64,000 nt of DNA from Salmonella phage vB_SenS-3, in the sequence record OR896822.1; one strand, written 5' to 3'. Position 1 is the stretch's first letter; each line of letters begins with the position of its first letter. A program made the position numbers and the translations under genes. The notes beneath the pieces are model-generated. The model saw only the letters and a program-made list of their open reading frames with translations, was not told the origin of the DNA and did no database searches. Positions 5,203 to 47,208 of the stretch are shown piece by piece.

Positions 5203-5970
5203 TTATTCAGCAGCCGCAGCTTTTGCATCCAGTTTAGCACGCTTAGCGGCACCATCATAGTCCTTAGCAACCAGACCACGACGAGACAGCATAGATTTAA
5301 CACCGCGCTCAGACTTACCAGTTTTCTCAGCGATCTCAGCAACAGTCATGTTAGCCAGATCCAGACCTTCTAACAGATCTTCACGAGTTTTAGCACTTGA
5401 AGTTTCCTGTACCGGCATAGCAGCGATACGACCTTCACGAAGCAGGCTCAGAGCTTTACCACGGATCTGCTTAATATTGCGACCGAAGTGAGCAGCGATA
5501 GCTTCAATAGTAGCACCAGCAACAACCTGATTAACGAAATCAGTTTCTTCGTCAGGAGTGAAGGAACGAACAGCAGCAGTTTTTTCAGTTGGCTTAACAG
5601 AAGCAGTCATTTCCAGACTCAGGATCTTACCCTGTACCTGCTTAGCACCGAACTGACCACCAGCTACAGCAGCAGCGATTTCAGCGTAAGTATACTGACC
5701 AGCATGAGCGTTCAGGAAATCAACCAGTTCAGCTTCCTGTTCAGGAGTCCACGGGGATTTCTGTACTTCGTTAGCTTTCTGTACTTCGAAACCTTCTTTA
5801 CGCAGCTTAGAGCCAACAGAGCGAGCGGTAACGTCTTTACCAGTCTCGGTAGCCAGTTCAGCAGCGATAGCAGCTACTTGTTCTTGAGAGATTACAGCAA
5901 CACCCAGAGCAGTGGCTTTTGCTTTCAGAGACTCGGTTACACCTTCTACGTTCCAGTTCAGTTTAGACAT
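5203..5970 (-). CDS. putative DNA-binding protein with four tandem HTH-like repeats
   Basis: 255 aa, Ala-rich; four repeats of the pattern xEIAxxxGxxxxxxxGKxLSL; RBS present. Confidence 0.6.
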   Translation of the reverse strand: MSKLNWNVEGVTESLKAKATALGVAVISQEQVAAIAAELATETGKDVTARSVGSKLRKEGFEVQKANEVQKSPWTPEQEAELVDFLNAHAGQYTYAEIAAAVAGGQFGAKQVQGKILSLEMTASVKPTEKTAAVRSFTPDEETDFVNQVVAGATIEAIAAHFGRNIKQIRGKALSLLREGRIAAMPVQETSSAKTREDLLEGLDLANMTVAEIAEKTGKSERGVKSMLSRRGLVAKDYDGAAKRAKLDAKAAAAE

Positions 5971-6745
5971 TATTATTTTTCTCCAATAGTTCTTTAATCG
6001 ACAGGATTTCTATCCCATTCGTTTCGGCTTTCTTATAAGATGAGGAAGAACGTTTTGATTCATCCTCACAGATTAGGTATTTGACGTCTTTGGTAACGGA
6101 CTTCTTGACCGTATATCCTAGACTTTCTAAATAGTTTGTTGCATCCGTTCGATTTGCAAAATCTTGCAAAGATCCGGTAATACAGATCGTGATTCCATTT
6201 GGCTGGGCAACTAAATCATCCGTAATGATGATATCAGCTTTAGTACCTCGAATACCAGTTGAGAATTTCCATGGTAATTCAATAACATCCTTGCCTTGTG
6301 GGGAATTTAGCCAGGTTTTGTAATTTTCTCCAGCCTTGCCGTCAGCCTTCACATCGTGGAAGCTAGTGCAATTTTGGGACAGTTTCTTTGCTGCAACCTC
6401 TCCAATAAGAGGAATTCCTAAAGAACCGAGAACCGAACCAAAGTCAATGTCTCCGCGAACCTTAGTATTTAACTCGCTAATCAACTTAGCGGCAACCTTG
6501 CTACCAACAGCTCCGACCAAATCTTCTTCGGTCAGGTAAAACAGTTCTGAGATCTTAGTCAGTTCCAGCTTCTCAATAGTTTTCGGGCCAAAGCCCTTTA
6601 ACTTCATTTTTGTGCAGAAGTTCTCGATTAACTTACTTGATTGCGCTGGACAGTTGGACTTATTCCTACAGAATAATTGCCCGTTGACAAGATCTAGCTT
6701 AGAACCACAAGAGGGACATTGTGTTGGAATTTCGATTTTCATCAA
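5963..6745 (-). CDS. ligB: NAD-dependent DNA ligase, C-terminal part (Zn finger, HhH, BRCT)
   Basis: 260 aa; C4 zinc finger CPSCGSKLDLVNGQLFCRNKSNCPAQ; HhH-like GFGPKTIEKL; C-terminal BRCT-like region. Confidence 0.8.
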   Translation of the reverse strand: MMKIEIPTQCPSCGSKLDLVNGQLFCRNKSNCPAQSSKLIENFCTKMKLKGFGPKTIEKLELTKISELFYLTEEDLVGAVGSKVAAKLISELNTKVRGDIDFGSVLGSLGIPLIGEVAAKKLSQNCTSFHDVKADGKAGENYKTWLNSPQGKDVIELPWKFSTGIRGTKADIIITDDLVAQPNGITICITGSLQDFANRTDATNYLESLGYTVKKSVTKDVKYLICEDESKRSSSSYKKAETNGIEILSIKELLEKNNNV

Positions 6746-6771
6746 ATTTCTTCCTTATCAATTTATATAAA

Positions 6772-6800
6772 TATTATAGCAAGTATTTAAGCATTTAGCA
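6772..6800 (-). promoter_or_regulatory. sigma70-type promoter in the ligA-ligB gap
   Basis: minus-strand -35 TTGCTA, 17 bp spacer, -10 TATAAT, then conserved leader ATTTATATAAATTGATAAGG. Confidence 0.6.
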
Positions 6801-6944
6801 ACTACAATTTTAACTAACTTTGCTTACCCTCGCCATAACTTTCTATCCCTCAACTGAATGATAATAGTATATACCTAAGCGGCGAAAATGTCAATAACCA
6901 CTTTATAATTCCGACATGGTAAACGGGTAGCAAAGGGTTACGAA

Positions 6945-7919
6945 TTAGTCGTATACTCGCTCTACTATACAAGGGATTACACCACCAGCACGAATCACTC
7001 GAATCTGGCAACCGATCTCTAAATCGAGAGCGTTAATATAATCAACGTTATTAAGAGTTGCTTTAACGATTGTGGCATCATCAATAATCACCGGCTCGAA
7101 ATAACCAACTGGAGTTACTTTACCAGAAGCCCCTACTTGCCATTCAACTTTAACAAGTGTGGTAATTTCGCCTTCTTCATCCTCTTTAATAGCAAATGCA
7201 CCGCGAGGAAATTTATTAGTCCAACCTTCACGGAAGAATTTGTTGTTATCATTAATACGAACAACTTTACCATCCGTCGGAATCCACTTAAAGAAGGAAC
7301 GAACATTAACAACTGTCAAGAAGTTCTCATTCTCTAGCCAAAGCATATCTTTTAAATAGGCTTCTGTAATACCGACTGTTTCCGCTGAACACTGGATACC
7401 ATATGCAACGAAGATTAAACCACCTTCACCAATACGTTGCATGAAATCATCACTATCTTTCAGGTTAATAGCACCAGAAGCATAGTTACGTTTGTTCTCT
7501 ACTTCTTTAGTAATGAGAACTTCACCAGTGATTTGAGTTGGTACTTTTTGGGAAATAGTTTTGGGGATGTTCAGCATTTTAACATTATGCGTTACATCAT
7601 TCCCTAGAATACCGTTACCACGAGTTAACGCTTGAACAAACTCACCATTAATATATAATAGAGAAATCGCACAACCATCTAACTTATCAGTTTCAACCTG
7701 ACCAAGTGGGTTGAATGGAGCTTTATCACCACGATCGTAATAGACTTTCTGCAAAGAATACATACGATACAAATGAGGGATATCACCTTTCGGTCCGATT
7801 TCTTCCTCTAGTGGGAATCTTTTAATCAGACGATCATATTCTTCATCGGAAATAAGACTCATTCCCTGGTAGTACGCTTCTTGACAACGTTTAATAAAGT
7901 CTTTTACATTATTCATCAT
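6945..7919 (-). CDS. ligA: NAD-dependent DNA ligase, N-terminal part (adenylation + OB domain)
   Basis: 324 aa; adenylation motif KLDG (TDKLDGCAISLLY); separate ORF from the Zn-finger/BRCT part. Confidence 0.85.
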   Translation of the reverse strand: MMNNVKDFIKRCQEAYYQGMSLISDEEYDRLIKRFPLEEEIGPKGDIPHLYRMYSLQKVYYDRGDKAPFNPLGQVETDKLDGCAISLLYINGEFVQALTRGNGILGNDVTHNVKMLNIPKTISQKVPTQITGEVLITKEVENKRNYASGAINLKDSDDFMQRIGEGGLIFVAYGIQCSAETVGITEAYLKDMLWLENENFLTVVNVRSFFKWIPTDGKVVRINDNNKFFREGWTNKFPRGAFAIKEDEEGEITTLVKVEWQVGASGKVTPVGYFEPVIIDDATIVKATLNNVDYINALDLEIGCQIRVIRAGGVIPCIVERVYD

Positions 7920-14440: not shown

Positions 14441-14468
14441 CAGAGAAAACCGAGTCAAAATGACTCGG
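14441..14468 (-). terminator. putative terminator downstream of gene 14493..14816
   Basis: 9-bp perfect hairpin ACCGAGTCA/TGACTCGGT followed by TTTCTCT on minus strand. Confidence 0.5.
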
Positions 14469-14492
14469 TAATCAGGATTGAGCTAATGAAAA

Positions 14493-14816
14493 TCAATCAT
14501 CATTTAGGCCTGGGACATAGATTCCAATGCGATTTAATTGACCTTTAGCTTCTTCGAGAATATCTTCGGTGTACTCCCAAATATCATCTTCTACTTGCAA
14601 AAGATAAGGGGATTCACCAGTTTCGGGCTCACGTGTAATGGCTAAGCCACGTGGATGGAATATAGAGAAGTTGAGGGCAACAATCAAGCCCATGCTGGAC
14701 AATTCATTCCAGTCAGCTTCCCAGCCATCATCTTCATCTTCGTCCACAAATACACCTACACTAGGGTCTGTTACAGAAGTAAACGGAAATGTTACACTAA
14801 CCTTGTCAACCCCCAA
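14493..14816 (-). CDS. hypothetical protein, paralog of 14898..15326
   Basis: 107 aa; shares DW-EL-MGL-ALN ... TGE-P ... PGL pattern with the adjacent ORF. Confidence 0.6.
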   Translation of the reverse strand: MGVDKVSVTFPFTSVTDPSVGVFVDEDEDDGWEADWNELSSMGLIVALNFSIFHPRGLAITREPETGESPYLLQVEDDIWEYTEDILEEAKGQLNRIGIYVPGLNDD

Positions 14817-14897: not shown

Positions 14898-15326
14898 TTA
14901 AGCAGTTAAACCTGGGATCATATACCCGAAACGACGAAGTTTCTGAATCCCCTCATTTACTTCCTCGGGCGAATATGACCAGCCCTCACGTTCATTTACC
15001 TGGAAAGCAGGAGCTTCACCAGTGCGATAGTTTACAATAAGACGGTGATTTGCAGGCATAAACAGCTTATGGTTCAAGGCAAAAACCAGACCCATTTCAT
15101 CGAGTTCTTTCCAGTCTACAATTTCTTCTACTCCCCCACCTAAATCCACGCTAACTCCAATACACGGAGCTTCCTCTAGTGGGCCTTTAAAAGACAGGAA
15201 GATATCGTTATTCTCACACCAAATCTTAAGCAGATTGATGGTTTCATTGTACATACCATTAGGGAGAGAACGCCAGAAGTTGAGGAGCATAGGATTTACC
15301 TCTTTCATGAAAATATTATTGAACAT
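14898..15326 (-). CDS. hypothetical protein, paralog of 14493..14816
   Basis: 142 aa; C-terminal region alignable to neighbouring 107 aa ORF. Confidence 0.6.
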   Translation of the reverse strand: MFNNIFMKEVNPMLLNFWRSLPNGMYNETINLLKIWCENNDIFLSFKGPLEEAPCIGVSVDLGGGVEEIVDWKELDEMGLVFALNHKLFMPANHRLIVNYRTGEAPAFQVNEREGWSYSPEEVNEGIQKLRRFGYMIPGLTA

Positions 15327-15328: not shown

Positions 15329-15868
15329 TTATACCTTAAGTTTCTGAAGAGCCTTACACATTTCAAGATCTGGACTAAATTCCAGCATATAGCTTATAGC
15401 ATTTAAATCTTGAAGGTTTATTCCAGTCCTGCCATTTACAATAACAGTAGGAAATTGGTACATCATAGCACCAGCATCATCTAGGACGCACCAATGCTTG
15501 AGCTTATGTTTTTCTACGAAACGTAAGACAGAATTACCTCGAGATAAACCACCTCCAGTAAAATCTGTTGTACCAAGAAAACGATCGATCAAACCGAGTC
15601 CGGTCATAATCTGAACGTTCTCCATTTCATTTCGTACAGAAAACCATGAAGATACCCCAACAATCATTATTGGGGATGGCTTAAGAAAGTTCTGAAAAGC
15701 CTGGAGTAATGGCTTGTAAACCCAATCACCACCAAAGAATAGCTTTTCACTATCTGGAGCATGATGGTGAGAGATGCTCGAATTGAGCACCCCATCAATA
15801 TCCGGGAAAATCACAGGAGTATTACTTATTTCCACCAGTAGCATCCCACGTCCAGACTTTAACTTCAT
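15329..15868 (-). CDS. HAD-superfamily hydrolase-like protein (putative phosphatase/nucleotidase)
   Basis: 179 aa; N-terminal IFPDIDGVL resembles HAD motif I (DxDG); VLDDAG near C-terminus. Confidence 0.5.
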   Translation of the reverse strand: MKLKSGRGMLLVEISNTPVIFPDIDGVLNSSISHHHAPDSEKLFFGGDWVYKPLLQAFQNFLKPSPIMIVGVSSWFSVRNEMENVQIMTGLGLIDRFLGTTDFTGGGLSRGNSVLRFVEKHKLKHWCVLDDAGAMMYQFPTVIVNGRTGINLQDLNAISYMLEFSPDLEMCKALQKLKV

Positions 15869-16007
15869 CAGTAAAAGGAACTGGAACCTTCAATTCACCT
15901 TTACCCCACATAACAGATAGGAACAGAGAATAAATGGTAATCATACCGATTAGGTTGACAAACCATACTAGACCTTTCCAGATACCCTTAAAAATCTTCT
16001 TCACCAT
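15822..16007 (-). CDS. small membrane protein
   Basis: start set at ATG after RBS AGGAGGG; one hydrophobic helix (LVWFVNLIGMITIYSLFLSVMW). Confidence 0.4.
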   Translation of the reverse strand: MVKKIFKGIWKGLVWFVNLIGMITIYSLFLSVMWGKGELKVPVPFTDEVKVWTWDATGGNK

Positions 16008-16170
16008 ATTCTCCCTCCTTAATAAGGAACTCTTTCCATTCTGCTGTATCCTCATAGATAACGCAGAAATCATCACTCTTCCATGAGAAGTCATCAGTAG
16101 CAAATTCGAAACGGTAGCACCAACTACCGTCTGGCCATACTAAAAGATCACACATGCTTTTCTGGGACAT
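15988..16170 (-). CDS. hypothetical protein
   Basis: start trimmed to ATG after RBS GGAGGG; acidic C-terminus. Confidence 0.4.
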   Translation of the reverse strand: MSQKSMCDLLVWPDGSWCYRFEFATDDFSWKSDDFCVIYEDTAEWKEFLIKEGEYGEEDF

Positions 16171-16999
16171 AAATATTTCCCTCCATAAAAGCTTCAACTT
16201 GATCAATAAAGTGTTTATTACCAAAAACTTCGGCAGCTCCAGCACGCCATACAGTAACACCACGTTTCTCATATTCAAGCTGTTCATCATAGCGAACTTG
16301 AGGGTTAACAACCATCATCTTAGTTCCACGACATACAGCAGGGAATAGTTCCCAGTTGAAGTCAATCACTTGGTTGCTACAACCTACTACAATAACCATA
16401 TCATTGCTAGTAAGTGTATCAAACAGGTTAATCTGACCCATATACCACGGAGCCGTCTCACCAAAGAATGTTACGTTTGGTTTTACCCATTCGTAATCTT
16501 CAGGAACAATTGCAGTGTATCCAACATCTTCGATGATTTGATTGCGACCCCGACGATAGATCACCTCTTTCAAGTACCCGTGAGCGTGAATGATTTCATC
16601 ACGAGGGATACCAGCACGTTCCAGAAGGTCATCAACGTTAGTAGTGAAGTTCTTCACGCTATCCGCACCATAACGCTGGAACCATTCTGCAATTCGCAGA
16701 TGGGCAATGTTAGGCTCAACAGTCTGTAATTCCTGACGACGCATGTTGTAGAACTCATGAGTCTTGAGATACAGATCGTTACCCTCTTCATCAATGCCAG
16801 GGAAACGAGCACTGAAGTAGTTAGGATCATCTTCACCACAGAAGCGACGGAAGCCAGCTTCAAAGTTAGGCAAGCTACATACTTCCTCTAGATCGTACTC
16901 ATCCCACAAAGATTTTCCACTAGCAGTATCAGTACGGAAAGCACGAACACCACTATCAACACTTAAACCAGCACCACTAACAATGATTAGTCTACGCAT
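16148..16999 (-). CDS. Sir2-family (sirtuin-like) NAD-dependent protein
   Basis: 283 aa; sirtuin-like motifs SGAGLSVDSGVRAFR, TTNVDDL, IHAHG, VTFFGE. Confidence 0.75.
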   Translation of the reverse strand: MRRLIIVSGAGLSVDSGVRAFRTDTASGKSLWDEYDLEEVCSLPNFEAGFRRFCGEDDPNYFSARFPGIDEEGNDLYLKTHEFYNMRRQELQTVEPNIAHLRIAEWFQRYGADSVKNFTTNVDDLLERAGIPRDEIIHAHGYLKEVIYRRGRNQIIEDVGYTAIVPEDYEWVKPNVTFFGETAPWYMGQINLFDTLTSNDMVIVVGCSNQVIDFNWELFPAVCRGTKMMVVNPQVRYDEQLEYEKRGVTVWRAGAAEVFGNKHFIDQVEAFMEGNIYVPEKHV

Positions 17000-17712: not shown

Positions 17713-17746
17713 AATAAAATAAAAGCCAGGTCGACTAGCAACCTGG
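17711..17746 (-). terminator. putative terminator downstream of nrdD
   Basis: GCCAGG/CCTGGC stem with T-rich tract on minus strand, just after nrdD stop. Confidence 0.45.
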
Positions 17747-17754
17747 CTGATTCA

Positions 17755-19629: not shown

Positions 19630-19879
19630 TACACCCTCCTTCTCTAATTAAGACTACTATTATAACTCATTCGAAGGCGGATGTCAACAATATTTTACCA
19701 TAAAGTTCTGTAACATGATCTGAGTCAAAAAATTTTATTTGCCAACCTCTATTAAAAATAGTATAATCACACGCCCGTGTACGCGATATAAAATGATTAT
19801 CTAGTACCATACATCTCCCAATAAAAGCAAGTAAATTTTTTATTTAAAAGCAATATCATGGGTTTATTTAAAATTATAC

Positions 19880-33444: not shown

Positions 33445-34074
33445 TAATAGTGGGGTGCCGAAACCACTTATGTAACAACACTGCCGTCCTAGTATAATAG
33501 GTATTATTAGGGCTTCACCGCCTGAAGATGTGGGTTCGAGTCCCACGGTCGGAAAGAGTTGGATAACTGGTGCTTCTAATGGCGAAGCAATCGCAGGCAG
33601 TTGCGCACTGCCAAAACCACGCGGTAGTTGGTTCCAGGCTAACCAACCACTCTTGAAAAGTATATACTACGGTTTTGCTTGTTCAGGAAGCTTCGCATCG
33701 AAAATCGGAGGTGCGATTTTATCAGACCGCGTGGAGGACGTCTCTCCGTTAAGTGACGAAAAGTGGGACGATTCAGGTAGAGCTGGATATGGAACACCTA
33801 TACATATGCGGAGTGCGCACAAAGCATATTGCGGTGGTACTAAACGAAATTAGGAGTCATGACCTGCACAAGTTTAGTATGTCATAACCGATGTACATTC
33901 AGTACAAAAACCACTGAAGCTAAGATAGATAGTCACCTTGACTTAAACTGGAAGATATTGTCTGACGGAAGGGCTGCAGAGCTTAATCTGAGGGGGCTGA
34001 CCCTACCTACCGTCGGGTATCTTTAAGAGTTCTTACGAGAACTCTTAAAGATACCTAAACATTAAGGAATACTG

Positions 34075-34584
34075 ATGAATCTAGGAACTACTTGTATATT
34101 TGATCACAGAGAAATGTGTTGCCCACATATTCTGTATGTAGTTCACTTTGCAGAACGTCTTACTCTGGATGAAGCTCGTGAGAAAATGGGTGGAATTACT
34201 GGATATGATTTCCGTGAAGGTGAATACTTTAGCATTGCTCTTGATTACATTGACAATACCCGTCTCTATCATCTAGTGCAGCTAGGGGAAGAAACTGATG
34301 AAGTGAAAATGGCGAAAGATACTCTACGTCGTTATCGTCCTCAGATTCTAGAACGTACACTTCGTGGAGAACGTAGTGACCCATTGTTCTTGAAGTGCTA
34401 TGACGCAGATGTTAATGAGTATCTAGGACAGCAACGGTTTTACACTGAAATCAAAGAGTTTGTTCGTGAAAAATACGACGCTCTACTAATTGATTCCAGA
34501 GCACGACGTGCAGCTAAAAATGCTGAGAAATCTGCTAAAGCAGCACTAGAAAGCCAAACCAAACTGAACGAAATCGTTAAGTGA
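34075..34584 (+). CDS. hypothetical protein
   Basis: 169 aa ORF ending 8 nt before tRNA-Arg. Confidence 0.55.
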   Translation: MNLGTTCIFDHREMCCPHILYVVHFAERLTLDEAREKMGGITGYDFREGEYFSIALDYIDNTRLYHLVQLGEETDEVKMAKDTLRRYRPQILERTLRGERSDPLFLKCYDADVNEYLGQQRFYTEIKEFVREKYDALLIDSRARRAAKNAEKSAKAALESQTKLNEIVK

Positions 34585-34592
34585 TCTAATTT

Positions 34593-34667
34593 CGGGGTGT
34601 AGTCTAAGGGATAGGCAGGAGTCTTCTAAATTCCTTTATGCAGGTTCGAATCCTGTCACCTCGGCCA
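34593..34667 (+). tRNA. tRNA-Arg (anticodon TCT)
   Basis: hand-folded cloverleaf: acceptor CGGGGTG/CACCTCG, anticodon loop CTTCTAA, T-loop TTCGAAT, CCA encoded. Confidence 0.75.
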
Positions 34668-34693
34668 ATCTTATTACCTGTTAGGAAAATAAA

Positions 34694-34894
34694 ATGAAAA
34701 CACGATATATAGTAAAAGTAGTAGGTGAACATTCGCAAGTAAATACCACGGATGTTACAGCACTAGCATTTGAGGTAGTCTCCGGTATAGTCATATTTCA
34801 TAATGGGGATATCAAAGCTCCTGAATTTGCTGTGGATGCTGGCCTGTTTATTTCTGCAACTAAAGTAACTGTAGTAGCTAACTCTTCTAAATAA
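34694..34894 (+). CDS. hypothetical protein
   Basis: 66 aa ORF with RBS AGGAAA. Confidence 0.45.
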   Translation: MKTRYIVKVVGEHSQVNTTDVTALAFEVVSGIVIFHNGDIKAPEFAVDAGLFISATKVTVVANSSK

Positions 34895-34905
34895 TAAGGA
34901 AATAT

Positions 34906-35850
34906 ATGTTTACTAAAAACACTAAAGAACTGACTTCTGAGCAAAAAGTAATTCGTACTATTAAACGTTGGGGTGTTGGTGCTGCTATTAGTCTTGGTGC
35001 TCTTATTCTGGCTCTCAATTCCTATACAGTTGTTCAGGATGGTACTGTTAAGACCCAAACCTTCCTGGGTAAAGTTAGCCCTAATCCTGTATTGCCAGGC
35101 TTCCATATTGTTAACCCATTTGCTTCTTTTGATACTTTTAGTACGAAAGATATTTCCATGAAACTGGATAAACTTCAGGTTCCTAGCCAGGATAAGTTTA
35201 AGTCCACTGTTGACATTACCGTTATGTTGCAGTTTGATGGTGCTAAAGCTCCTATGAACCGTGTTAACGCAGGTACTCAGGATCAAGCTCTGAACAAGTA
35301 CGTTGAAGAGAAGATGCTGTCTACGATTCGTGAGTTTGGTAAGTCTGTACCAAAAGCACAAGATCTGTTCGACGCTAAGATTCAGGCTCAACTGCAAACC
35401 GCTATTCAGCAAGAAGTAGAAGAGTATGCGCGTCCTTATGGTTACACCGTTAAGCAAGTATTCCTTCAGGATATTACTCTGCCACCGGTAATCATGGAAC
35501 AGGTACAGAACACCAAAGTTCGTGAAGAACAAGTTAACGCTGCAAAAGCTGAACTGGCTCGTGTTGAACAAGAAGCACAGCAGAAAGTTAAGCAAGCTGA
35601 GGCGGATCGTTCCGCTCGTGAAAACATGGCAGTAGCTAACGAACGTGACGCAGATGCTAAACTGTACGCAGCTAAGAAAGAAGCTGAAGCTAACGCCGCT
35701 CTGCAACGTACCATTACTCCTGAAATGATTCGTTGGAAGCAGCTGGAAGTTGAAATGCTTCGTGCTGAAAAATACCAAGGTGGTGTACCACAGACTGTTG
35801 TCGGTACTGGCTACGATGGTCAAATGATCATGGATATGCGTAACAAGTAA
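34906..35850 (+). CDS. SPFH/band-7 (prohibitin/HflC-like) membrane protein
   Basis: 314 aa; N-terminal TM helix, SPFH-like core, C-terminal Ala/Glu-rich coiled coil. Confidence 0.7.
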   Translation: MFTKNTKELTSEQKVIRTIKRWGVGAAISLGALILALNSYTVVQDGTVKTQTFLGKVSPNPVLPGFHIVNPFASFDTFSTKDISMKLDKLQVPSQDKFKSTVDITVMLQFDGAKAPMNRVNAGTQDQALNKYVEEKMLSTIREFGKSVPKAQDLFDAKIQAQLQTAIQQEVEEYARPYGYTVKQVFLQDITLPPVIMEQVQNTKVREEQVNAAKAELARVEQEAQQKVKQAEADRSARENMAVANERDADAKLYAAKKEAEANAALQRTITPEMIRWKQLEVEMLRAEKYQGGVPQTVVGTGYDGQMIMDMRNK

Positions 35851-35873
35851 TAGTTACACGTAATCTTCGAACC

Positions 35874-35908
35874 AAGCCCGCGTTTCCTTCGAGAGCGCGG
35901 GCTTTTCT
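35874..35908 (+). terminator. rho-independent terminator after SPFH gene
   Basis: AAGCCCGCG...CGCGGGCTT hairpin followed by TTCTGT. Confidence 0.55.
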
Positions 35909-36054
35909 GTATTTAAGGCAAAAGAAAAAGCCCATAAGTTATTCAACTAAGGTCTTTAGTATTTAATTCTTTAGAATCATATACTATTATTGCAGCAACA
36001 ACGTGCTAACCTTAAGTGCCCTGCGATTTTCCTCTAAAAAGTTAAAAAATTCGA

Positions 36055-36083
36055 TTGCTTGAATGCTAAATTCTCTGTATAAT
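36055..36083 (+). promoter_or_regulatory. sigma70-type early promoter
   Basis: -35 TTGCTT, 17 bp, -10 TATAAT, conserved leader TATAAATTTGAGAGAGGAATCAAAT. Confidence 0.6.
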
Positions 36084-36113
36084 ATATTTATAAATTTGAG
36101 AGAGGAATCAAAT

Positions 36114-37169
36114 ATGATTAAGACTGGTCTAGTAATTGGTAAGTTCGCACCATTAACGCGTGGTCATATTAACCTAATAAACACAGCAGCAACTATGTGT
36201 GAACGAGTTATTGTTGTAGTTAGTCATGATAATCGTTGGCTGGATAAGCAGAACACACGTGATAAGGAAGTATTACAGTTAAAGAATCGACTTCGTTGGT
36301 TAGAACAAACTTACGCGGATATTGAGCACATTTCGGTAGAGTACATTATTGAAGATGATATTCCTGAATATCCGAATGGTTGGCCGGAATATGCTAGAAT
36401 CCTTAATGAAAATTACGGACATTTGCCTGAGATCACCGTTTTCTCTAGCGAACTAGACTATGATGCAGAATATAAGAAATATCTGCCGAAGTTTGGTCAT
36501 TATATTGTAGATTCTGATCGGACTCGTGTTCCAATCTCAGCTACAATGATTCGTAATGATCTTATGAAGTATTGGGAGTTTCTTCCTAGCGTAGTTCGTA
36601 AAGATTACGTGCGTAAGGTTGTAATCATTGGGACTGAAAGCTCGGGAAAGACTACTTTAACAAAATACCTTGCGAAGCTATACAACACTTCGTGGGTAGA
36701 AGAATATGGTCGAACGTATTGTGAAGTTGATCTAGTTGGTAACGAAAATCTGCTTACCAGCGAAGATTATAGTAAAATTGCGTTCAGACACAAAGAGCTA
36801 GAGTTTGAAGCAGAACGTACTGCAAATAAGATCATGTTTGTGGATACAAATGCTTTTATTACTGAGTTCTACCACAGACTTTATGAACATAGTAAGAATC
36901 CTGTGGTTACAGCAATTGCAAAAGAAGAACATTATGATTTAGTAATTGTTCTAGCGCCTACTGTCAAGTGGGTAGATGATGGTTTACGTATTAACTCCGA
37001 TCGTTCAATTACTTCTGAACTATTCGAGCAGATGAAGAAAGAATTTCCAAATCAGTTCCCTGAAGGGCGTACTGTTTACATCGACTCTCCGGACTACAAA
37101 GTTCGTATGGACGAAGCAGTAAACGCAGTAGACTGGCTGATTCATCACTTTAACGTTGGAGAGTTTTAA
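36114..37169 (+). CDS. nadR: NadR-like bifunctional NMN adenylyltransferase / ribosylnicotinamide kinase
   Basis: N-terminal GKFAPLTRGHINLI (nucleotidyltransferase HxGH-type); C-terminal Walker A GTESSGKTT; ATG 36114 after conserved leader RBS. Confidence 0.8.
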   Translation: MIKTGLVIGKFAPLTRGHINLINTAATMCERVIVVVSHDNRWLDKQNTRDKEVLQLKNRLRWLEQTYADIEHISVEYIIEDDIPEYPNGWPEYARILNENYGHLPEITVFSSELDYDAEYKKYLPKFGHYIVDSDRTRVPISATMIRNDLMKYWEFLPSVVRKDYVRKVVIIGTESSGKTTLTKYLAKLYNTSWVEEYGRTYCEVDLVGNENLLTSEDYSKIAFRHKELEFEAERTANKIMFVDTNAFITEFYHRLYEHSKNPVVTAIAKEEHYDLVIVLAPTVKWVDDGLRINSDRSITSELFEQMKKEFPNQFPEGRTVYIDSPDYKVRMDEAVNAVDWLIHHFNVGEF

Positions 37170-37170
37170 T

Positions 37171-37827
37171 ATGACTAACTATCTCGTAAATGACTTTAAA
37201 AACTGGAAACCTCTGGAATATCTGTGGCTGTTCATAGCGGTTGTCTTCATTAGTTTAGCAAACTATAATGGTACAGCTCTAGATTGGGCTACTGCAATAA
37301 CCAATGTGGTTTGTGTTATTCTGGTTGCAAAAGGACGTATTTCCAACTATATTTGGGGCTTAGTGGGTGTTCTTACATATGGTATTACAGCTTTAAACGC
37401 AGATCTTTATGGTAACGCTGCACTAAACCTGCTATACTACGTTCCTATGCAGTTTTATGGAATGTACTTATGGCATAAAAATAAGCCAAGTAATCTGCCA
37501 GATGTTCCAACTAAGGTTCTGACTAAAGCCCAAGCTCTGCTGACTCTAGGGATTCTAGCAGTAGCCACGTTAGGGTATGGTAGTTTCTTAGCTACTACGG
37601 CTGATCCATTTCCAATGTTGGATGCATTTACTGCTGTAGGTAGTGTGATCGCTATGTGGCTTATGGTTAAGCAATATGCCGAGCAGTGGCTGATCTGGAT
37701 TGCTATTAACATTGGTACTGTGTACATTTGGCTTGTAACTGCTCAATCTACAGGTGCATCTTATGCAATCCTAGCAATGTGGCTAGTATTCTTAGGTAAC
37801 TCTATTATAGGAGCCTATAAAGGATAA
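37171..37827 (+). CDS. pnuC: PnuC-like nicotinamide riboside transporter
   Basis: polytopic membrane protein with W/G-rich helices; adjacent and co-oriented with nadR; ATG 37171 after RBS GGAGAG. Confidence 0.7.
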   Translation: MTNYLVNDFKNWKPLEYLWLFIAVVFISLANYNGTALDWATAITNVVCVILVAKGRISNYIWGLVGVLTYGITALNADLYGNAALNLLYYVPMQFYGMYLWHKNKPSNLPDVPTKVLTKAQALLTLGILAVATLGYGSFLATTADPFPMLDAFTAVGSVIAMWLMVKQYAEQWLIWIAINIGTVYIWLVTAQSTGASYAILAMWLVFLGNSIIGAYKG

Positions 37828-37854
37828 TTTGTACGCGTTAACAAATAAAGTAGT

Positions 37855-37878
37855 TATAGCCCTCGCTTAGAGGGCTAT
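37855..37878 (+). terminator. putative terminator hairpin after pnuC
   Basis: ATAGCCCTC-GCTTA-GAGGGCTAT perfect 9-bp hairpin; weak T-run. Confidence 0.45.
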
Positions 37879-37895
37879 TATACAGAAATTTTCAC

Positions 37896-37924
37896 TTGCT
37901 TAATATAGAAAATTTCTGTATAAT
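37896..37924 (+). promoter_or_regulatory. sigma70-type early promoter
   Basis: -35 TTGCTT, 17 bp, -10 TATAAT; leader identical to the nadR promoter leader. Confidence 0.6.
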
Positions 37925-37954
37925 ATATTTATAAATTTGAGAGAGGAATCAAAT

Positions 37955-38251
37955 ATGAAACGCATTGTACTTGCATTGACTCTAGTATCTACTTCTGTAT
38001 TTGCTGCTCCACAACAGGAACTTTGTCAAGTTCAAGTTTGTAATAAGCTAGAACGATTTACTCTAGACATTTGGTCCCACATTAAAGATAATATGGGTGA
38101 ACAGTGTTTTGATATTGTTCTGCCAAAAGAACAAGCTGTTCCTGGGGCTGTTCTCAGCTCAGAATCACGTTGGTGGCAAGGTTCTTCTATCAACCCAACT
38201 AAGAAGTCAGTGACACGTATCAAACAAGTATATCAGTGCAACGTTCAGTAA
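37955..38251 (+). CDS. secreted hypothetical protein
   Basis: signal peptide MKRIVLALTLVSTSVFAAP; paired cysteines. Confidence 0.5.
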   Translation: MKRIVLALTLVSTSVFAAPQQELCQVQVCNKLERFTLDIWSHIKDNMGEQCFDIVLPKEQAVPGAVLSSESRWWQGSSINPTKKSVTRIKQVYQCNVQ

Positions 38252-38259
38252 AATTTCAC

Positions 38260-38288
38260 TTGCTTAATGCCTAAATTTTCTGTATAAT
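38260..38288 (+). promoter_or_regulatory. sigma70-type early promoter
   Basis: -35 TTGCTT, 17 bp, -10 TATAAT. Confidence 0.6.
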
Positions 38289-38321
38289 ATATTCATAAAT
38301 TTGGAAGATTAGGAACTATTT

Positions 38322-38831
38322 ATGTTAGACTATGAGTCTATACTTTATAGATTCCGTTTAGAAGATGGTGTACTGGTGTGGAATCCGCTCTCCGGAAACT
38401 CCAGAGAGGAGAAGATATTTAATACTAAGTTTGCCAATAAACCTGCGGGATCTTTGCACAAAAGCTCTGGGTATATCAGAGTTAACGTTGATCACCAAGA
38501 TTACTTAGCTCATATCATAGTATTTATACTATATTATGGGTATAGGCCGGAAATGGTTGATCATAAAGACTGCAATAAGTTAAATATACATCCTTTAAAT
38601 TTAAGAGCAGCGGATAGTACCACTAATACTCATAATGCTAGTAAATCTTCTAGGAATACTAGCGGATTTAAGGGAGTATCCTACCACAAAGCATCTGGTC
38701 AGTGGCAGGGTAGAATAATGTTTAAAGGTAAGTCATACTCCGCAGGGCTGCACAGTACTCCTGAAGCAGCAAATGAAGCTCTAATTCAACTGAGAGAGAA
38801 ACTTCATGGGGAATATGCCCGAAATAATTAA
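38322..38831 (+). CDS. HNH homing endonuclease with AP2 domain
   Basis: 169 aa; HNH core PEMVDHKDCNKLNIHPLNL; AP2-like GFKGVSYHKASGQWQGRIMFKGKSY; stop abuts tRNA-Ser. Confidence 0.75.
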   Translation: MLDYESILYRFRLEDGVLVWNPLSGNSREEKIFNTKFANKPAGSLHKSSGYIRVNVDHQDYLAHIIVFILYYGYRPEMVDHKDCNKLNIHPLNLRAADSTTNTHNASKSSRNTSGFKGVSYHKASGQWQGRIMFKGKSYSAGLHSTPEAANEALIQLREKLHGEYARNN

Positions 38832-38920
38832 GGAAGAATAGCATAACGGTATTGCAGCAGATTGCTAATCTGTCGGTTTGAAACATAGCCTTGTGGGTTC
38901 GATTCCCACTTCTTCCGCCA
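38832..38920 (+). tRNA. tRNA-Ser (anticodon GCT), long variable arm
   Basis: acceptor GGAAGAA/TTCTTCC perfect; anticodon loop TTGCTAA; T-arm GTGGG-TTCGATT-CCCAC; CCA encoded. Confidence 0.8.
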
Positions 38921-38925
38921 AATTT

Positions 38926-39003
38926 GGTTCTCAAGCTCATTTGGTATGAGCCGTCGCCTCATAAGCGAAAGGTAGGTAGGTTCGAATCCTCCGGGAGCCA
39001 CCA
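38926..39003 (+). tRNA. tRNA with CAT anticodon (Met or Ile2)
   Basis: acceptor GGTTCTC/GGGAGCC with G-U pairs; D-stem GCTC/GAGC; anticodon loop CTCATAA; CCA encoded. Confidence 0.7.
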
Positions 39004-39152
39004 GATAACTAGGAGACTTTATGTCACGCTTTCACGAAATTAAGCAAGAACTAGAAGAATGTATGTGTACTGAATGTTGGGGTTCTGGCACTTAATGTTC
39101 CAGTGACTGGATTCCCTGATTGGCTGCAAGGTTACGAACTCTAACAAAATTT

Positions 39153-39238
39153 GGATCTGTGGTGGAATTGGCAATACACACCATGCTTAAAACGTGGCGC
39201 TTAAATGATTGAGGGTTCGAGCCCCTCCAGATCCACCA
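39153..39238 (+). tRNA. tRNA-Leu (anticodon TAA), long variable arm
   Basis: acceptor GGATCTG/CAGATCC perfect; anticodon stem CCATG/CGTGG, loop CTTAAAA; T-arm GAGGG-TTCGAGC-CCCTC; CCA encoded. Confidence 0.8.
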
Positions 39239-39399
39239 AATTAAGGAAGTAAAAATGAAATCTATTAAGAAAGCTATTCGTGAACTTATCCGTTGTCGCT
39301 TCCATAGCATCAAGGCTTCAACTAATGGTACTACTTACGATCGCTACGATCGCTATGATCCTAAGTTTGGCTTACATTCTAAATAACTGGAGAAAACAA

Positions 39400-39606
39400 A
39401 TGGCTAATCCTGAAATTACGGCACAACGTTTTATGCTGAAAGGAATTATTGCTGAAGCAGGCGTGACACAAGAAGTGGAAGATTTCCATAAGCAGTTCCT
39501 AAATATTCTCACTCAAGCCAAAGAGCTAGGAGAGAAAGAACATGGCGCGGCTATTATGGCAATCACATTGGTTGGGCTTGATCTGGCAGAAGAATCAGGA
39601 GTTTAA
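39400..39606 (+). CDS. hypothetical protein
   Basis: start set at internal ATG (MANPEITAQ...) with RBS; upstream part of the listed ORF overlaps tRNA-Leu. Confidence 0.4.
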   Translation: MANPEITAQRFMLKGIIAEAGVTQEVEDFHKQFLNILTQAKELGEKEHGAAIMAITLVGLDLAEESGV

Positions 39607-39636
39607 CTTCTCCAAGCAGAAATTTTAAAAATGTAC

Positions 39637-39666
39637 TTGCTTTTTACTTAAGATTTCTGCTATAAT
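39637..39666 (+). promoter_or_regulatory. sigma70-type early promoter
   Basis: -35 TTGCTT, 18 bp, -10 TATAAT. Confidence 0.55.
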
Positions 39667-39695
39667 AGTTATATAAGTTGATGAGAGGAATCAGA

Positions 39696-39971
39696 ATGTT
39701 AAAACGTTTTGCAGCAACTGGTATTGAAAGCTCAGTATGTAAATCCTGGGGTGGTTGGGAAGGTGAGATCGAGTGGCTTTATTTCTACAATGTAGAACTT
39801 CTTCCAGAGATCAAAGCTCAATGTATTAAGGCTGGTATGGCTCCTGATGCTACGGCTGATGTTGAAATCAGCATGAATAAGCTAGAGGGTCGAGTAGTCA
39901 CTGTTACTGATGAAGGTGAAGAGGTATTCGAACTTCCATTCACTTTGAAAGTCACTCCTTCATTTGATTAA
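39696..39971 (+). CDS. hypothetical protein
   Basis: start at ATG after conserved leader RBS GAGAGGAATCAGA. Confidence 0.5.
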   Translation: MLKRFAATGIESSVCKSWGGWEGEIEWLYFYNVELLPEIKAQCIKAGMAPDATADVEISMNKLEGRVVTVTDEGEEVFELPFTLKVTPSFD

Positions 39972-40008
39972 CTGATACAGCACTTGAGCAAGTTCTTTAA
40001 AATTTGAC

Positions 40009-40038
40009 TTGCTCAAGTGCCTTAAAACTTGATATAAT
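40009..40038 (+). promoter_or_regulatory. sigma70-type promoter heading a tRNA transcription unit
   Basis: -35 TTGCTC, 18 bp, -10 TATAAT; about 120 nt leader then tRNA-Tyr. Confidence 0.55.
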
Positions 40039-40162
40039 AGTTACCTAATTTGGAAACATATCTGAATGAGAAGTAATTAAGCGAGTTGCTTTGAGGGATA
40101 AAGTCAGGATAGCCGGAAATATTCCACCTTGAGTTTAACCGACTTACTTTTCATTCAAATAT

Positions 40163-40243
40163 GGGGGATTGGCTCAGTGGCGACGGCGCCTGGCTGTAGA
40201 CCGGGTATATCACGCGGAGGTTCGAGTCCTCCATCCCCCACCA
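40163..40243 (+). tRNA. tRNA-Tyr (anticodon GTA), long variable arm
   Basis: acceptor GGGGGAT/ATCCCCC perfect; anticodon stem CCTGG/CCGGG, loop CTGTAGA; T-arm GGAGG-TTCGAGT-CCTCC; CCA encoded. Confidence 0.75.
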
Positions 40244-40251
40244 AAATTAAT

Positions 40252-40326
40252 GCACCTATCGTCTAATGGTTAGGACATCAGGATTTCAATCTGAGAATTG
40301 AACTCCGATTCTCCGTGGGTGTGCCA
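40252..40326 (+). tRNA. tRNA-Glu (anticodon TTC)
   Basis: acceptor GCACCTA/TGGGTGT; D-stem GTCT/GGAC; anticodon stem TCAGG/TCTGA, loop ATTTCAA; atypical T-arm; CCA encoded. Confidence 0.6.
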
Positions 40327-40335
40327 ATTAATAAT

Positions 40336-40406
40336 TGGGGTACGCATAGGTTGCTAGTGGGCCTCCAAAACCCATGAAAAGGTTTCGAATACCTTTACCC
40401 CTGCCA
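40336..40406 (+). tRNA. tRNA-Trp (anticodon CCA), atypical
   Basis: T-arm AAGGT-TTCGAAT-ACCTT perfect; acceptor 6 bp with U1/U72 mismatch; anticodon loop CTCCAAA; CCA encoded. Confidence 0.55.
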
Positions 40407-40412
40407 ATATTT

Positions 40413-40487
40413 GCACCTTTAGCTGAGATGGATTAGCGCTTGCCTGAAGAGCTTGAGAGGTTCGTTCAATTCGAACAGGGTGCACCA
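40413..40487 (+). tRNA. tRNA, probable Phe (anticodon GAA); anticodon stem imperfect
   Basis: acceptor GCACCTT/AGGGTGC; T-arm GTTCG-TTCAATT-CGAAC perfect; loop CTGAAGA fits Phe but stem has two U-U mismatches; CCA encoded. Confidence 0.55.
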
Positions 40488-40504
40488 ATTTGAAGGAGAT
40501 GCTG

Positions 40505-40777
40505 ATGCATCCTGAAAACTTCTTTATATACTGTACTAGTCCTTTGCTTAAACGCCGGATTAATAAAGTATATCACTACAGAGCTAGTCAACAGCCTTAT
40601 GTTTATGATTCTAGTGGAGATCATATTCCACTTGAGCAACTAGGGACTGATTATATGGTTTTGAAGCACTTTAATGAGGCGAAGATCTCTAGCGTTCATA
40701 ACCGACAAAACTCTAAAACGTGGTGGCATAAGAAGCGTAAGAAAGGCATCAAATTTCTTAAAAATGTAGTTGCTTAA
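40505..40777 (+). CDS. hypothetical basic protein
   Basis: ATG 40505 six nt after RBS AAGGAG, immediately downstream of the tRNA cluster. Confidence 0.45.
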   Translation: MHPENFFIYCTSPLLKRRINKVYHYRASQQPYVYDSSGDHIPLEQLGTDYMVLKHFNEAKISSVHNRQNSKTWWHKKRKKGIKFLKNVVA

Positions 40778-40798
40778 ATCCTTAAAGTTCTGTATAAT
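40770..40798 (+). promoter_or_regulatory. sigma70-type early promoter
   Basis: -35 TTGCTT, 17 bp, -10 TATAAT; -35 overlaps stop region of 40505..40777. Confidence 0.6.
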
Positions 40799-40826
40799 TA
40801 TTACATAAATTGAACTGGAGAACTAG

Positions 40827-41015: not shown

Positions 41016-41083
41016 TACGACCGTTGGCTGAATGGCTTAGGCGGAGGCCTGCAAAACCTCCTTATGTGAGTTCGAATCTCATG
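41008..41083 (+). tRNA. tRNA-Cys (anticodon GCA)
   Basis: acceptor CGACCGT/GCGGTCG; anticodon loop CTGCAAA; T-arm GTGAG-TTCGAAT-CTCAT; CCA encoded; 5' end overlaps stop of 40827..41015. Confidence 0.7.
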
Positions 41084-41617: not shown

Positions 41618-41620
41618 ATT

Positions 41621-42267: not shown

Positions 42268-42273
42268 AATTAT

Positions 42274-47207: not shown

Positions 47208-47208
47208 T

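What the first reader, a model, noticed from the sequence alone, without database searches (positions are those of the whole stretch)
16148..16999. Sir2-family protein inside the replication / nucleotide-metabolism block
The ORF has sirtuin-like motifs (GAGLS..SG..FR, TTNVDDL, HG, FFGE). Sir2 domains either deacylate proteins or hydrolyse NAD, and in bacteria they are frequent defence effectors. A phage copy could modify host proteins, or mimic or interfere with host SIR2-based immunity. It sits near the NAD-dependent ligase and in the same genome as the NadR/PnuC pair, which suggests a coordinated phage NAD economy.
Basis: partly seen in the sequence, partly recalled or inferred. Interest (0 to 1): 0.65.

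Follow-up and report, generated by a model that had tools for sequence, protein, structure and literature searches.

The report
Known zinc-less phage sirtuin, T5 family
This gene is a real, catalytically intact sirtuin, but it has been annotated in T5-like phages since 2004; its biochemical job is still untested, and its gene neighbours point more towards RNA-end repair than towards immune mimicry or a coordinated NAD economy.

Summary
The ORF at 16148-16999 (-) is real and is a SIR2-family protein (Pfam PF02146, E=2e-21; PHROG 2162, E=2.5e-107). The AF2 model matches E. coli CobB (TM 0.83). The window is a T5-like Salmonella phage (Epseptimavirus). An identical protein is already annotated "Sir2", and T5's counterpart T5p100 has carried that label since 2004.

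All NAD-pocket and catalytic residues are conserved, as is the class-III Y-x-x-R pair. The four-Cys zinc ribbon is lost, and the Gln of "QNID" is Thr. These two changes co-occur in the nearest relatives.

There is no match to defence SIR2 models, no fused sensor domain and no macrodomain partner. The NadR/PnuC pair (19 kb away, opposite strand) and the ligase (8 kb away, another transcription unit) are not tightly linked to the gene.

The gene lies in a terminator-bounded block with a HAD_SAK_2 "RNA-repair" phosphatase. In other phage lineages its homologues sit with RNA ligase 1, cREC, a P-loop kinase, phosphoesterases, 2H and Nudix genes. This confirms a published prediction (Iyer et al. 2022) of a Tpt1-like RNA-repair role.

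I found no experimental test. Best guess: RNA-end repair (0.4), against an ordinary protein deacylase (0.35).

The parts
16148..16999 (-). Sirtuin gene (283 aa), counterpart of T5p100, PHROG 2162
   Evidence: 100% identical to the S147 protein annotated as Sir2
16934..16975 (-). Residues 9-22, GAGLSVDSGVRAFR: NAD phosphate/ribose-binding loop (GAGxS...SGxxxFR)
   Evidence: G9 A10 G11 S13 S16 G17 F21 R22 are invariant in 31 sequences. Aligned to CobB GAGISAESGIRTFR.
16772..16858 (-). Residues 48-76: variable insert in the helical small domain, absent from many clade members
   Evidence: lower pLDDT in this region
16736..16750 (-). Residues 84-88, YNMRR: class-III Y-x-x-R pair (Y84, R87), aligned to CobB FYNARR
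   Evidence: Y in 141/151 and R in 109/151 representatives.
16625..16645 (-). Residues 119-125, TTNVDDL: the 'TQNID' motif with N121 and D123 kept and the canonical Gln replaced by T120
16577..16582 (-). H140-G141: catalytic histidine, aligned to CobB IHMHG
16484..16576 (-). Residues 142-172: beta-hairpin module occupying the place of the Zn ribbon, with no cysteines
   Evidence: No CxxC in any of 31 members. Strands E141-150 and E153-158 in the model. Representative table.
16457..16468 (-). Residues 178-181, FFGE: the sirtuin 'FGE' loop
   Evidence: F178, F179 and E181 invariant. Aligned to CobB WFGE.
15329..15868 (-). HAD_SAK_2 phosphatase (PF18143). Motif I is DIDGV and motif IV is LDD. The likely true start is the second Met, at 15844.
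   Evidence: The homologue in Aeromonas phage PX29 lies 0.66 kb from RnlA.
15988..16170 (-). Small ORF (phrog_5116) between the sirtuin and the HAD, function unknown
15822..16004 (-). Small hydrophobic ORF (phrog_11166) between the sirtuin and the HAD, function unknown
14898..15326 (-). DUF7415 protein (two copies of the domain), directly downstream of the HAD
14493..14816 (-). Second DUF7415 paralogue. Its homologue follows RnlA in phage PX29.
16999..17656 (-). Three small upstream ORFs of unknown function (phrog_5827, 5236, 7953) in the same block
17724..17748 (-). Intrinsic-terminator-like hairpin after nrdD; upstream boundary of the block
14449..14469 (-). Intrinsic-terminator-like hairpin after the second DUF7415 gene; downstream boundary of the block

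Best explanation
The gene encodes an active NAD+-consuming enzyme of a phage-specific, zinc-less branch of the class-III-like sirtuins. It is co-transcribed with a HAD_SAK_2 phosphatase in a compact early-gene block.

The most likely role is in healing damaged RNA ends, probably tRNA. In this reading the sirtuin does what Tpt1/KptA does. The phosphate oxygen of an RNA 2'-phosphate attacks C1'' of NAD+ and displaces nicotinamide. [quoted passage not shown] The HAD phosphatase clears terminal phosphates or dephosphorylates the ADP-ribose product.

Shown here: SIR2 family membership, the fold, the intact NAD and catalytic residues, Zn loss with the Gln-to-Thr change, and the gene contexts. Inferred: the substrate and the chemistry.
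For: 1. The catalytic machinery is intact and invariant, so this is an enzyme and not a decoy.
2. It shares a terminator-bounded block with PF18143 HAD_SAK_2, E=4e-17, with overlapping stop and start codons. In SPC35-type phages the HAD abuts the sirtuin directly.
3. In Vequintavirus nimi the homologue lies in the operon Rnl1 (PF09511) - cREC (PF20274) - Sir2 - MazG-like, with a divergent P-loop kinase and a metallophosphoesterase, next to a tRNA array.
4. In Mydovirus KNP2 the same gene set lies on one strand in a different order.
5. In jumbo phage BF the order is a 2H/Acb1-like gene, Sir2, then a Nudt16-like Nudix fused to cREC.
6. In an IMG/VR survey of 59 loci and 24 sirtuin clusters, 12 clusters carry at least one such gene within 5 kb, with reshuffled order and strand.
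7. The HAD and DUF7415 partners flank RNA ligase 1 in Aeromonas phage PX29, which has no sirtuin at that locus.
8. The two-step Tpt1 reaction (abstract of PMC11417386) parallels sirtuin chemistry as established in the literature.
9. Iyer et al. 2022 reached the same prediction independently (PMC9503650).
10. The phage carries 28 tRNA genes.
Against: No experiment was found.

T5-like phages have no Rnl1, cREC, kinase or 2H homologue in this window, and no Rnl1 in their genomes. A 2'-phosphate-generating ligation pathway is therefore not encoded by the phage.

Sugarlandvirus and Phapecoctavirus homologues have no recognisable repair neighbour; 10 of 24 clusters have none.

Apart from Zn loss and Gln-to-Thr, no residue separates this group from canonical Zn-containing relatives. 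The closest sequences and structures are protein deacylases.

The 'RNA repair' label of the HAD family is itself a computational inference. Nudix, 2H and HAD neighbours could equally process O-acyl-ADP-ribose.
Confidence: 0.4

Rival explanations
1. It is an ordinary CobB/SIRT5-like NAD-dependent protein deacylase (deacetylase or desuccinylase). It removes acyl groups from host or phage proteins during infection. Targets might include nucleotidyl-transferases with catalytic lysines, such as the ligases encoded beside it in some phages.
For: The best sequence and structure matches are CobB, Sir2Af1 and SIRT5. All deacylase catalytic residues are kept. So is the class-III Y84/R87 pair, which in SIRT5 and CobB binds acidic acyl groups (recalled from Du 2011 and Colak 2013); these residues are invariant here. 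Only one non-Zn position differs from canonical relatives. The 2016 Vibrio-phage study modelled the KVP40-type homologue as a functional deacetylase (PMC5107563). A Nudix neighbour also fits O-acyl-ADP-ribose disposal. In KNP2 the gene sits between an RNA ligase and a DNA ligase.
Against: This reading does not explain repeated, reshuffled linkage to RNA ligase, cREC, kinase, phosphoesterase and HAD genes in separate lineages. All NCBIfam CobB models score far below their cut-offs, for example 86.7 against 243 bits. The Zn ribbon that shapes the peptide cleft is lost. CobB's V-Y-P substrate loop is V-I-N/D followed by the invariant F214 and W216 here. The host already has CobB (my own knowledge).
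Confidence: 0.35
2. It is an NAD+ glycohydrolase or an immune mimic. The phage copy either depletes or reshapes host NAD, or interferes with host SIR2-based defence.
For: Zn-less SIR2 domains are typical of defence NADases (my own knowledge). The sirtuin allele is a divergent cassette inside an otherwise near-identical block: 67% identity against 95-100% flanks in MSP1, and 52% against 90-97% in T5. That pattern is seen in arms-race genes.
Against: There is no PADLOC hit at E<=1. The family match is PF02146, not the defence-type SIR2 family. There is no sensor or partner domain. No defence SIR2 appears among the top 50 structural matches. A phage that needs NAD for its own LigA, and in many relatives imports NAD precursors, is unlikely to burn NAD constitutively.
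Confidence: 0.08
3. It is part of a coordinated phage NAD economy. The sirtuin's nicotinamide output, or its use of NAD, is functionally coupled to the phage NadR/PnuC salvage genes and the NAD-dependent ligase.
For: In jumbo phage BF the homologue follows the NadM-like NMNAT and NadV within 3 kb. NadV lies within 5 kb in 2 of 24 clusters and at 5.6-6.3 kb in 3 more. This window encodes NadR, PnuC and a LigA.
Against: In this window NadR/PnuC are 19 kb away on the opposite strand, and the ligase is 8 kb away in another transcription unit. Close NadR homologues occur in about 206 records against about 434 for the HAD and essentially all T5-likes for the sirtuin. Any NAD-using enzyme benefits from salvage, so this reading says nothing about what the sirtuin does.
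Confidence: 0.1

Closest known systems
E. coli CobB and class-III sirtuins (SIRT5, Sir2Af1)
   Same: Same fold: Foldseek E~1e-15, TM 0.83 to CobB. Shared motifs are GAGxS...SGxRxFR...GLW, FYNxRR (the Y-x-x-R pair), PNxAH, N-x-D, ERAG, HxHG, FGE, G-x-S and the C-terminal N.
   Different: No four-Cys Zn ribbon. Thr replaces the invariant Gln of TQNID. V-Y-P is replaced by V-I-N/D followed by the invariant F214 and W216. There is a variable 29-residue insert. Only about 26% identity. NCBIfam CobB equivalog cut-offs are not reached.
Phage 'RNA-repair' sirtuin clade of Iyer, Burroughs, Anantharaman and Aravind 2022 (PMC9503650), type 3 neighbourhood (phage SP15)
   Same: Homologous to the cited examples: Serratia phage BF AQW88637.1 at 35% identity, and rV5/Mydo-type at 46-53%. 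It has the defining adjacent Swiss-Army-Knife HAD phosphatase.
   Different: Nothing essential; this is a member. What I add: the Zn-loss/Gln-to-Thr signature, the quantified neighbourhood survey, the HAD/DUF7415-RnlA link in Aeromonas phages, and the allele mosaicism.
Tpt1/KptA RNA 2'-phosphotransferase
   Same: It is proposed to work the same way. NAD+ is the ADP-ribose donor, an oxygen nucleophile attacks C1'', and then the ribose 2''-OH attacks (mechanism from the abstract of PMC11417386). In both cases the genomic partners are an Rnl1-type ligase, a kinase and a cyclic phosphodiesterase, as in fungal Trl1+Tpt1.
   Different: The fold and family are unrelated (only PF02146 is detected). 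The activity is untested. T5-likes lack the ligase, kinase and CPDase partners.
Defence SIR2 NADases (ThsA, DSR1/2, SIR2-HerA, SPARSA)
   Same: SIR2 superfamily, no Zn ribbon, catalytic Asn and His.
   Different: No PADLOC model matches. There is no sensor or partner domain. It is phage-encoded in an early metabolic block. Structurally it is closest to deacylases.
KVP40-type Vibrio phage Sir2/CobB (PMC5107563)
   Same: Homologous at about 32-34% identity. Absence of zinc was already noted there.
   Different: The KVP40-type has Ala rather than Thr at the Gln position and N-V-S-D in place of N-V-D-D. No HAD or ligase neighbour is seen in ValKK3.

Membership tests
SIR2 / sirtuin family (Pfam PF02146) | Profile match above the curated threshold | tested here: met
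   77.2 bits against a 24-bit cut-off, E=2e-21; PHROG 2162 E=2.5e-107
SIR2 / sirtuin family (Pfam PF02146) | Rossmann NAD-binding motifs GAGxS and SGxxxFR | tested here: met
   Residues 9-22, invariant in 31 sequences
SIR2 / sirtuin family (Pfam PF02146) | Catalytic His (HG) and the Asn/Asp of the QNID motif | tested here: met
   H140, N121 and D123 are invariant and aligned to CobB H147 and its N/D
SIR2 / sirtuin family (Pfam PF02146) | Gln of the TQNID motif | tested here: not met
   T120. It is Thr in 84% of the Zn-less group and Gln in 100% of 80 Zn-containing relatives.
SIR2 / sirtuin family (Pfam PF02146) | Four-cysteine Zn-ribbon small domain | tested here: not met
   No Cys between HG and FGE; no CxxC in any of 31 members
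SIR2 / sirtuin family (Pfam PF02146) | Sirtuin fold | tested here: met
   AF2 pLDDT 87; Foldseek to CobB, Sir2Af1 and SIRT5 at E 1e-15 to 1e-12
SIR2 / sirtuin family (Pfam PF02146) | NAD-dependent deacylase activity | not testable with these tools
   Needs an enzyme assay
Class III sirtuins (CobB/SIRT5 type) | Y-x-x-R pair in the FY..RR helix | tested here: met
   Y84 and R87 align to the CobB FYNARR motif and are invariant in the clade. Their role in binding acidic acyl groups is recalled from the literature.
Class III sirtuins (CobB/SIRT5 type) | Orthology to CobB (NCBIfam equivalog cut-offs) | tested here: not met
   Best score 86.7 bits against a 243-bit cut-off; all seven models are below threshold
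Defence-associated SIR2 effectors (ThsA, DSR, SIR2-HerA, SPARSA) | Match to a defence-system SIR2 model | tested here: not met
   0 PADLOC families at E<=1
Defence-associated SIR2 effectors (ThsA, DSR, SIR2-HerA, SPARSA) | Fused or adjacent sensor or partner (SLOG, HerA, pAgo, large C-terminal domain) | tested here: not met
   Single-domain 283-aa protein. Neighbours are a HAD, two DUF7415 genes and small ORFs.
SirTM (macrodomain-linked ADP-ribosylating sirtuins) | Adjacent macrodomain gene | tested here: not met
   None of the eight neighbouring ORFs has a Macro domain
Tpt1/KptA 2'-phosphotransferase | Sequence or fold homology to Tpt1 | tested here: not met
   Only PF02146 is detected, and structural neighbours are sirtuins. 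Any similarity is functional analogy only.
Tpt1/KptA 2'-phosphotransferase | NAD-dependent removal of RNA 2'-phosphate | not testable with these tools
   Needs an assay with 2'-PO4 RNA
Phage RNA-repair-associated sirtuin clade (Iyer et al. 2022) | Homology to the clade's named members (Serratia phage BF, rV5/Mydo type, SP15 type) | tested here: met
   tblastn 35-60% identity over 83-99% of the query; alignment
Phage RNA-repair-associated sirtuin clade (Iyer et al. 2022) | Conserved neighbourhood with an RNA-end-processing enzyme (type 3: SAK HAD) | tested here: met
   PF18143 HAD_SAK_2 lies 280 nt downstream on the same strand in the same terminator-bounded block

The most novel reading that the evidence does not exclude
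This zinc-less phage sirtuin is the first sirtuin whose physiological substrate is a nucleic acid. It would be a non-homologous replacement of Tpt1/KptA, using NAD+ to remove, or to ADP-ribosylate, phosphates at damaged tRNA/RNA ends. It would work with the HAD_SAK_2 phosphatase (and possibly DUF7415) as a ligase-independent end-healing module that protects the phage's translation system from host anticodon nucleases.
Probability: 0.35. Interest if true: 0.7.

Novelty: already known. Interest (0 to 1): 0.33.

Why it matters
As a gene call it adds nothing. The identical protein is already in GenBank and RefSeq as "Sir2", and the family has its own PHROG. The question behind it remains open: what does a sirtuin do for about a thousand sequenced virulent phages? 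If the RNA-repair reading is right, it would extend sirtuin chemistry from protein lysines to RNA phosphates and reveal a second, unrelated solution to the Tpt1 reaction. It would also identify a phage counter-measure to tRNA-cleaving defences. If it is a deacylase, it would be a rare case of a phage rewriting the host acyl-proteome. Either outcome can be tested with one purified 283-aa protein and a deletion in a BASEL-collection T5-like phage.

Tried and rejected
- PADLOC scan for defence SIR2: no hit, so the defence-mimic reading is rejected.
- NCBIfam CobB equivalogs: all below cut-off, so it is not a CobB orthologue.
- Net charge as a test of RNA binding: the sirtuins are acidic (pI 4.6-6.0). 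So are the phage Rnl1 (5.2-6.1), cREC (5.1-5.6) and Nudix-cREC (4.85), so this is uninformative.
- Group-specific residue analysis between Zn-less and Zn-containing relatives: only the Gln-to-Thr change and two weak positions emerged, so there is no sign of a new basic patch.
- Search for Rnl1, cREC, kinase, 2H or Nudix homologues in the window: none found.
- Pfam on the Phapecoctavirus neighbours: no hits.
- DUF7415 structure prediction: pLDDT 54.5, too poor for a fold search.
- Eight literature searches for any biochemical or genetic test of a phage sirtuin: only the 2016 in-silico model and the 2022 comparative-genomics prediction turned up. The BASEL paper's 'deacetylase' mentions concern tail fibres.
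- I could not access the model coordinates, so no electrostatics or docking was possible.

Full report
**Observation**

The ORF is real. It is ATG-started, 283 aa long, and lies at 16148..16999 on the minus strand.

- Pfam assigns it to SIR2 (PF02146) at 77.2 bits against a 24-bit threshold.
- PHROGs places it full-length in phrog_2162, 'Sir2 (NAD-dependent deacetylase)', at E=2.5e-107.
- NCBIfam's CobB models match but stay far below their cut-offs.
- PADLOC's defence-protein models give nothing.

**Where the window comes from**

The window is a T5-like Salmonella phage of the genus Epseptimavirus, 99.9% identical to phages polluks and S147 over 6 kb. The protein is 100% identical to the S147 product annotated as a SIR2-family deacetylase. 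tblastn finds homologues in 978 phage records: T5-likes, Vequintavirinae, Phapecoctavirus, KVP40-like vibriophages and jumbo phages. The T5 genome record of 2004 already names T5p100 'NAD-dependent protein deacetylases SIR2 family'. As a gene call, the finding is therefore already known.

**Anatomy of the protein**

The best solved relative by sequence is E. coli CobB (1S5P, E=5e-16).

- In that alignment H140 matches the catalytic His of IHMHG, and N121/D123 match the N and D of TQNID.
- GAGLS...SGVRAFR...LW matches GAGIS...SGIRTFR...LW.
- FYNMRR matches FYNARR. From my own knowledge of SIRT5 (Y102/R105) and CobB (Y92/R95), this is the class-III Y-x-x-R pair that binds acidic acyl groups.
- A 31-sequence alignment of homologues shows all these residues invariant.
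- An AF2 model is confident (pLDDT 87.1, pTM 0.86). Its top 50 Foldseek matches in the PDB are all canonical deacylases: CobB at E~1e-15 and TM 0.83, then Sir2Af1, SIRT5, Hst2, SIRT2 and SIRT3.

Two canonical features are missing.

- No cysteines lie between HG and FGE, and no member has a CxxC motif. The model puts a beta-hairpin where the Zn ribbon would be.
- The Gln of TQNID is Thr.

In an exhaustive search of 1.84 billion representatives, 22 of the 23 nearest full-length relatives combine a non-Gln residue with no Zn cysteines. More distant relatives are mostly Gln plus four Cys. The odds ratio is 27 (Fisher p=6.5e-16), not corrected for phylogeny. Apart from these two changes, almost nothing separates the two groups. 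CobB's V-Y-P substrate loop reads V-I-N/D here, followed by the invariant F214 and W216. Residues 48-76 form a variable insert that many members lack.

**Surroundings in the window**

The gene lies in a compact block of nine co-oriented genes with overlapping stops and starts. The block is bounded by terminator-like hairpins at 17748-17724 (after nrdD) and 14469-14449.

- Two small ORFs downstream of the sirtuin lies a 179-aa protein matching PF18143, 'HAD domain in Swiss Army Knife RNA repair proteins' (E=4e-17). Its HAD motifs I (DIDGV) and IV (LDD) are intact.
- Two DUF7415 paralogues follow it.
- RefSeq mislabels the HAD gene 'Sir2' because of a badly named 92-residue PHROG.

The split NAD-dependent ligase lies at 5966-7916 (-), beyond a terminator and the origin-binding protein gene. 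NadR/PnuC lie at 36114-37845 on the + strand.

**Related loci**

Iyer et al. 2022 (PMC9503650) proposed that most phage sirtuins form a distinct clade acting like KptA/Tpt1 in RNA repair. They described three neighbourhood types, and the third is T5-like phage SP15 with a Swiss-Army-Knife HAD. I re-derived these contexts independently.

- **Vequintavirus nimi:** Rnl1 (PF09511) - cREC (PF20274) - Sir2 - a MazG-like protein. Divergent from these are a P-loop kinase and a calcineurin-like phosphoesterase, with a tRNA array alongside.
- **Mydovirus KNP2:** the same gene set, all on one strand, followed by a DNA ligase.
- **Jumbo phage BF:** a NadM-like NMNAT, NadV, a 2H/Acb1-like protein, Sir2, then a Nudt16-like Nudix fused to cREC.
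- **IMG/VR survey:** 59 loci gave 24 sirtuin clusters at 80% identity. Twelve have an RNA-end-processing gene within 5 kb: the Rnl1 set in 6, the HAD in 4 (one of them a 38%-identical sirtuin), and a metallophosphoesterase alone in 2. NadV lies within 5 kb in 2 clusters. Ten clusters have nothing recognisable.
- **New here:** in Aeromonas T4-like phage PX29, homologues of the HAD and of DUF7415 flank RNA ligase 1, with no sirtuin at that locus. This ties both partners of the T5-like sirtuin to RNA ligation independently.

Against a simple picture, T5-likes have no Rnl1 and no cREC, kinase, 2H or Nudix in this window. Sugarlandvirus keeps the sirtuin without the HAD. Phapecoctavirus neighbours are uninformative.

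**NAD economy**

Close NadR homologues (>=80% identity) occur in about 206 phage records. The HAD occurs in about 434, and the sirtuin in essentially all T5-likes. The NadR/PnuC link is therefore not obligate. Only the jumbo-phage context places the sirtuin beside NAD salvage genes.

**Mechanism**

Retention of F21/R22, N121, D123 and H140 shows that the enzyme cleaves nicotinamide from NAD+ and uses the ribose 2'-OH.

- That chemistry fits lysine deacylation.
- It fits a Tpt1-type reaction equally well. [quoted passage not shown]
- Sequence therefore cannot decide between the two; context favours RNA.

I rate the RNA-end repair role at 0.40 and a conventional class-III deacylase at 0.35. The deacylase reading may involve ligase-type targets. 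NADase or immune mimicry is at about 0.08. A dedicated 'NAD economy' role is at about 0.1 and is not mutually exclusive with the others. I found no experimental work in eight literature searches.

**Extra observation: the sirtuin is a mosaic cassette**

In phage MSP1 the flanking genes are 95-100% identical to the window's, but the sirtuin is only 67% identical. In T5, NrdD is 97% identical, the HAD 90% and the origin-binding protein 94%, while the sirtuin is 52%. The divergence concentrates in the insert, the hairpin small domain and the C-terminus. Phage DT57C retains only remnants of the sirtuin and the HAD, so the pair is dispensable in some T5-likes.

**Verdict**

The gene is an already known member of an already described phage sirtuin clade. 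Its function is an open question that can be tested directly.

Noticed in passing
window 15329-15868 (-); L006 6776-7489; L002 7854-8126: Annotation errors are propagating. RefSeq calls the HAD_SAK_2 phosphatase 'Sir2 (NAD-dependent deacetylase)' through the 92-residue phrog_18062. In phage nimi a MazG-like 237-aa protein is labelled 'putative Sir2-like protein'. In ESCO13 a 90-aa ORF with no Sir2 domain carries the same label.
   Followed up: yes
window 16148-16999 compared with L009 (T5) and L010 (MSP1): The sirtuin is a divergent cassette in an otherwise near-identical block. It is 67% identical to MSP1's while the flanks are 95-100%, and 52% identical to T5's while NrdD, the HAD and the origin-binding protein are 90-97%. 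The window's allele is closer to myovirus alleles (about 60%) than to T5's.
   Followed up: partly
NC_027356.1 (DT57C) 46526-46762; NC_031022.1 (SHSML-45) 79314-79628: Some T5-like phages retain only fragments of the sirtuin (residues 197-250) and the HAD (residues 139-179, or 75-179 in SHSML-45). This looks like deletion across the pair, which implies the pair is dispensable for growth.
   Followed up: no
window 14493-14816 and 14898-15326 (-); L070 8347-8586: Tandem DUF7415 paralogues follow the sirtuin in all 31 T5-like loci surveyed, including those that lack the HAD. A homologue sits immediately after RnlA in Aeromonas phage PX29. The AF2 model was too poor (pLDDT 54) to assign a fold.
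   Followed up: partly
window 5966-6742 and 6948-7916 (-): The NAD-dependent DNA ligase is encoded as two separate ORFs with a gap of about 200 nt, as annotated in S147.
   Followed up: no
window 33482-33555 (+), within the 28-tRNA array at 33482-47455: ARAGORN calls a tRNA with anticodon TCA (labelled SeC). It would read UGA and might be a suppressor-type tRNA.
   Followed up: no
window 19659-19687 (-) and 19739-19767 (+): Back-to-back promoter-like sites lie between nrdD and phoH: a perfect 12/12 and an 11/12 sigma-70 consensus. They coincide with the change of sign of GC skew near 20 kb, which marks the divergence point of two transcription directions.
   Followed up: no
window 15822-16004 (-): The 60-aa ORF between the sirtuin and the HAD (phrog_11166) has a long hydrophobic stretch (WFVNLIGMITIYSLFLSVMW) and may be a small membrane protein. 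It is absent in SPC35-type phages, where the HAD abuts the sirtuin.
   Followed up: no
L003 6281-6727 (Serratia phage BF): A 2H-superfamily protein lies two genes upstream of the BF sirtuin (a small hypothetical ORF lies between them). It matches Pfam 'Anti-CBASS protein Acb1' (E=3.6e-15), so that cluster could also degrade cyclic-nucleotide immune signals.
   Followed up: no
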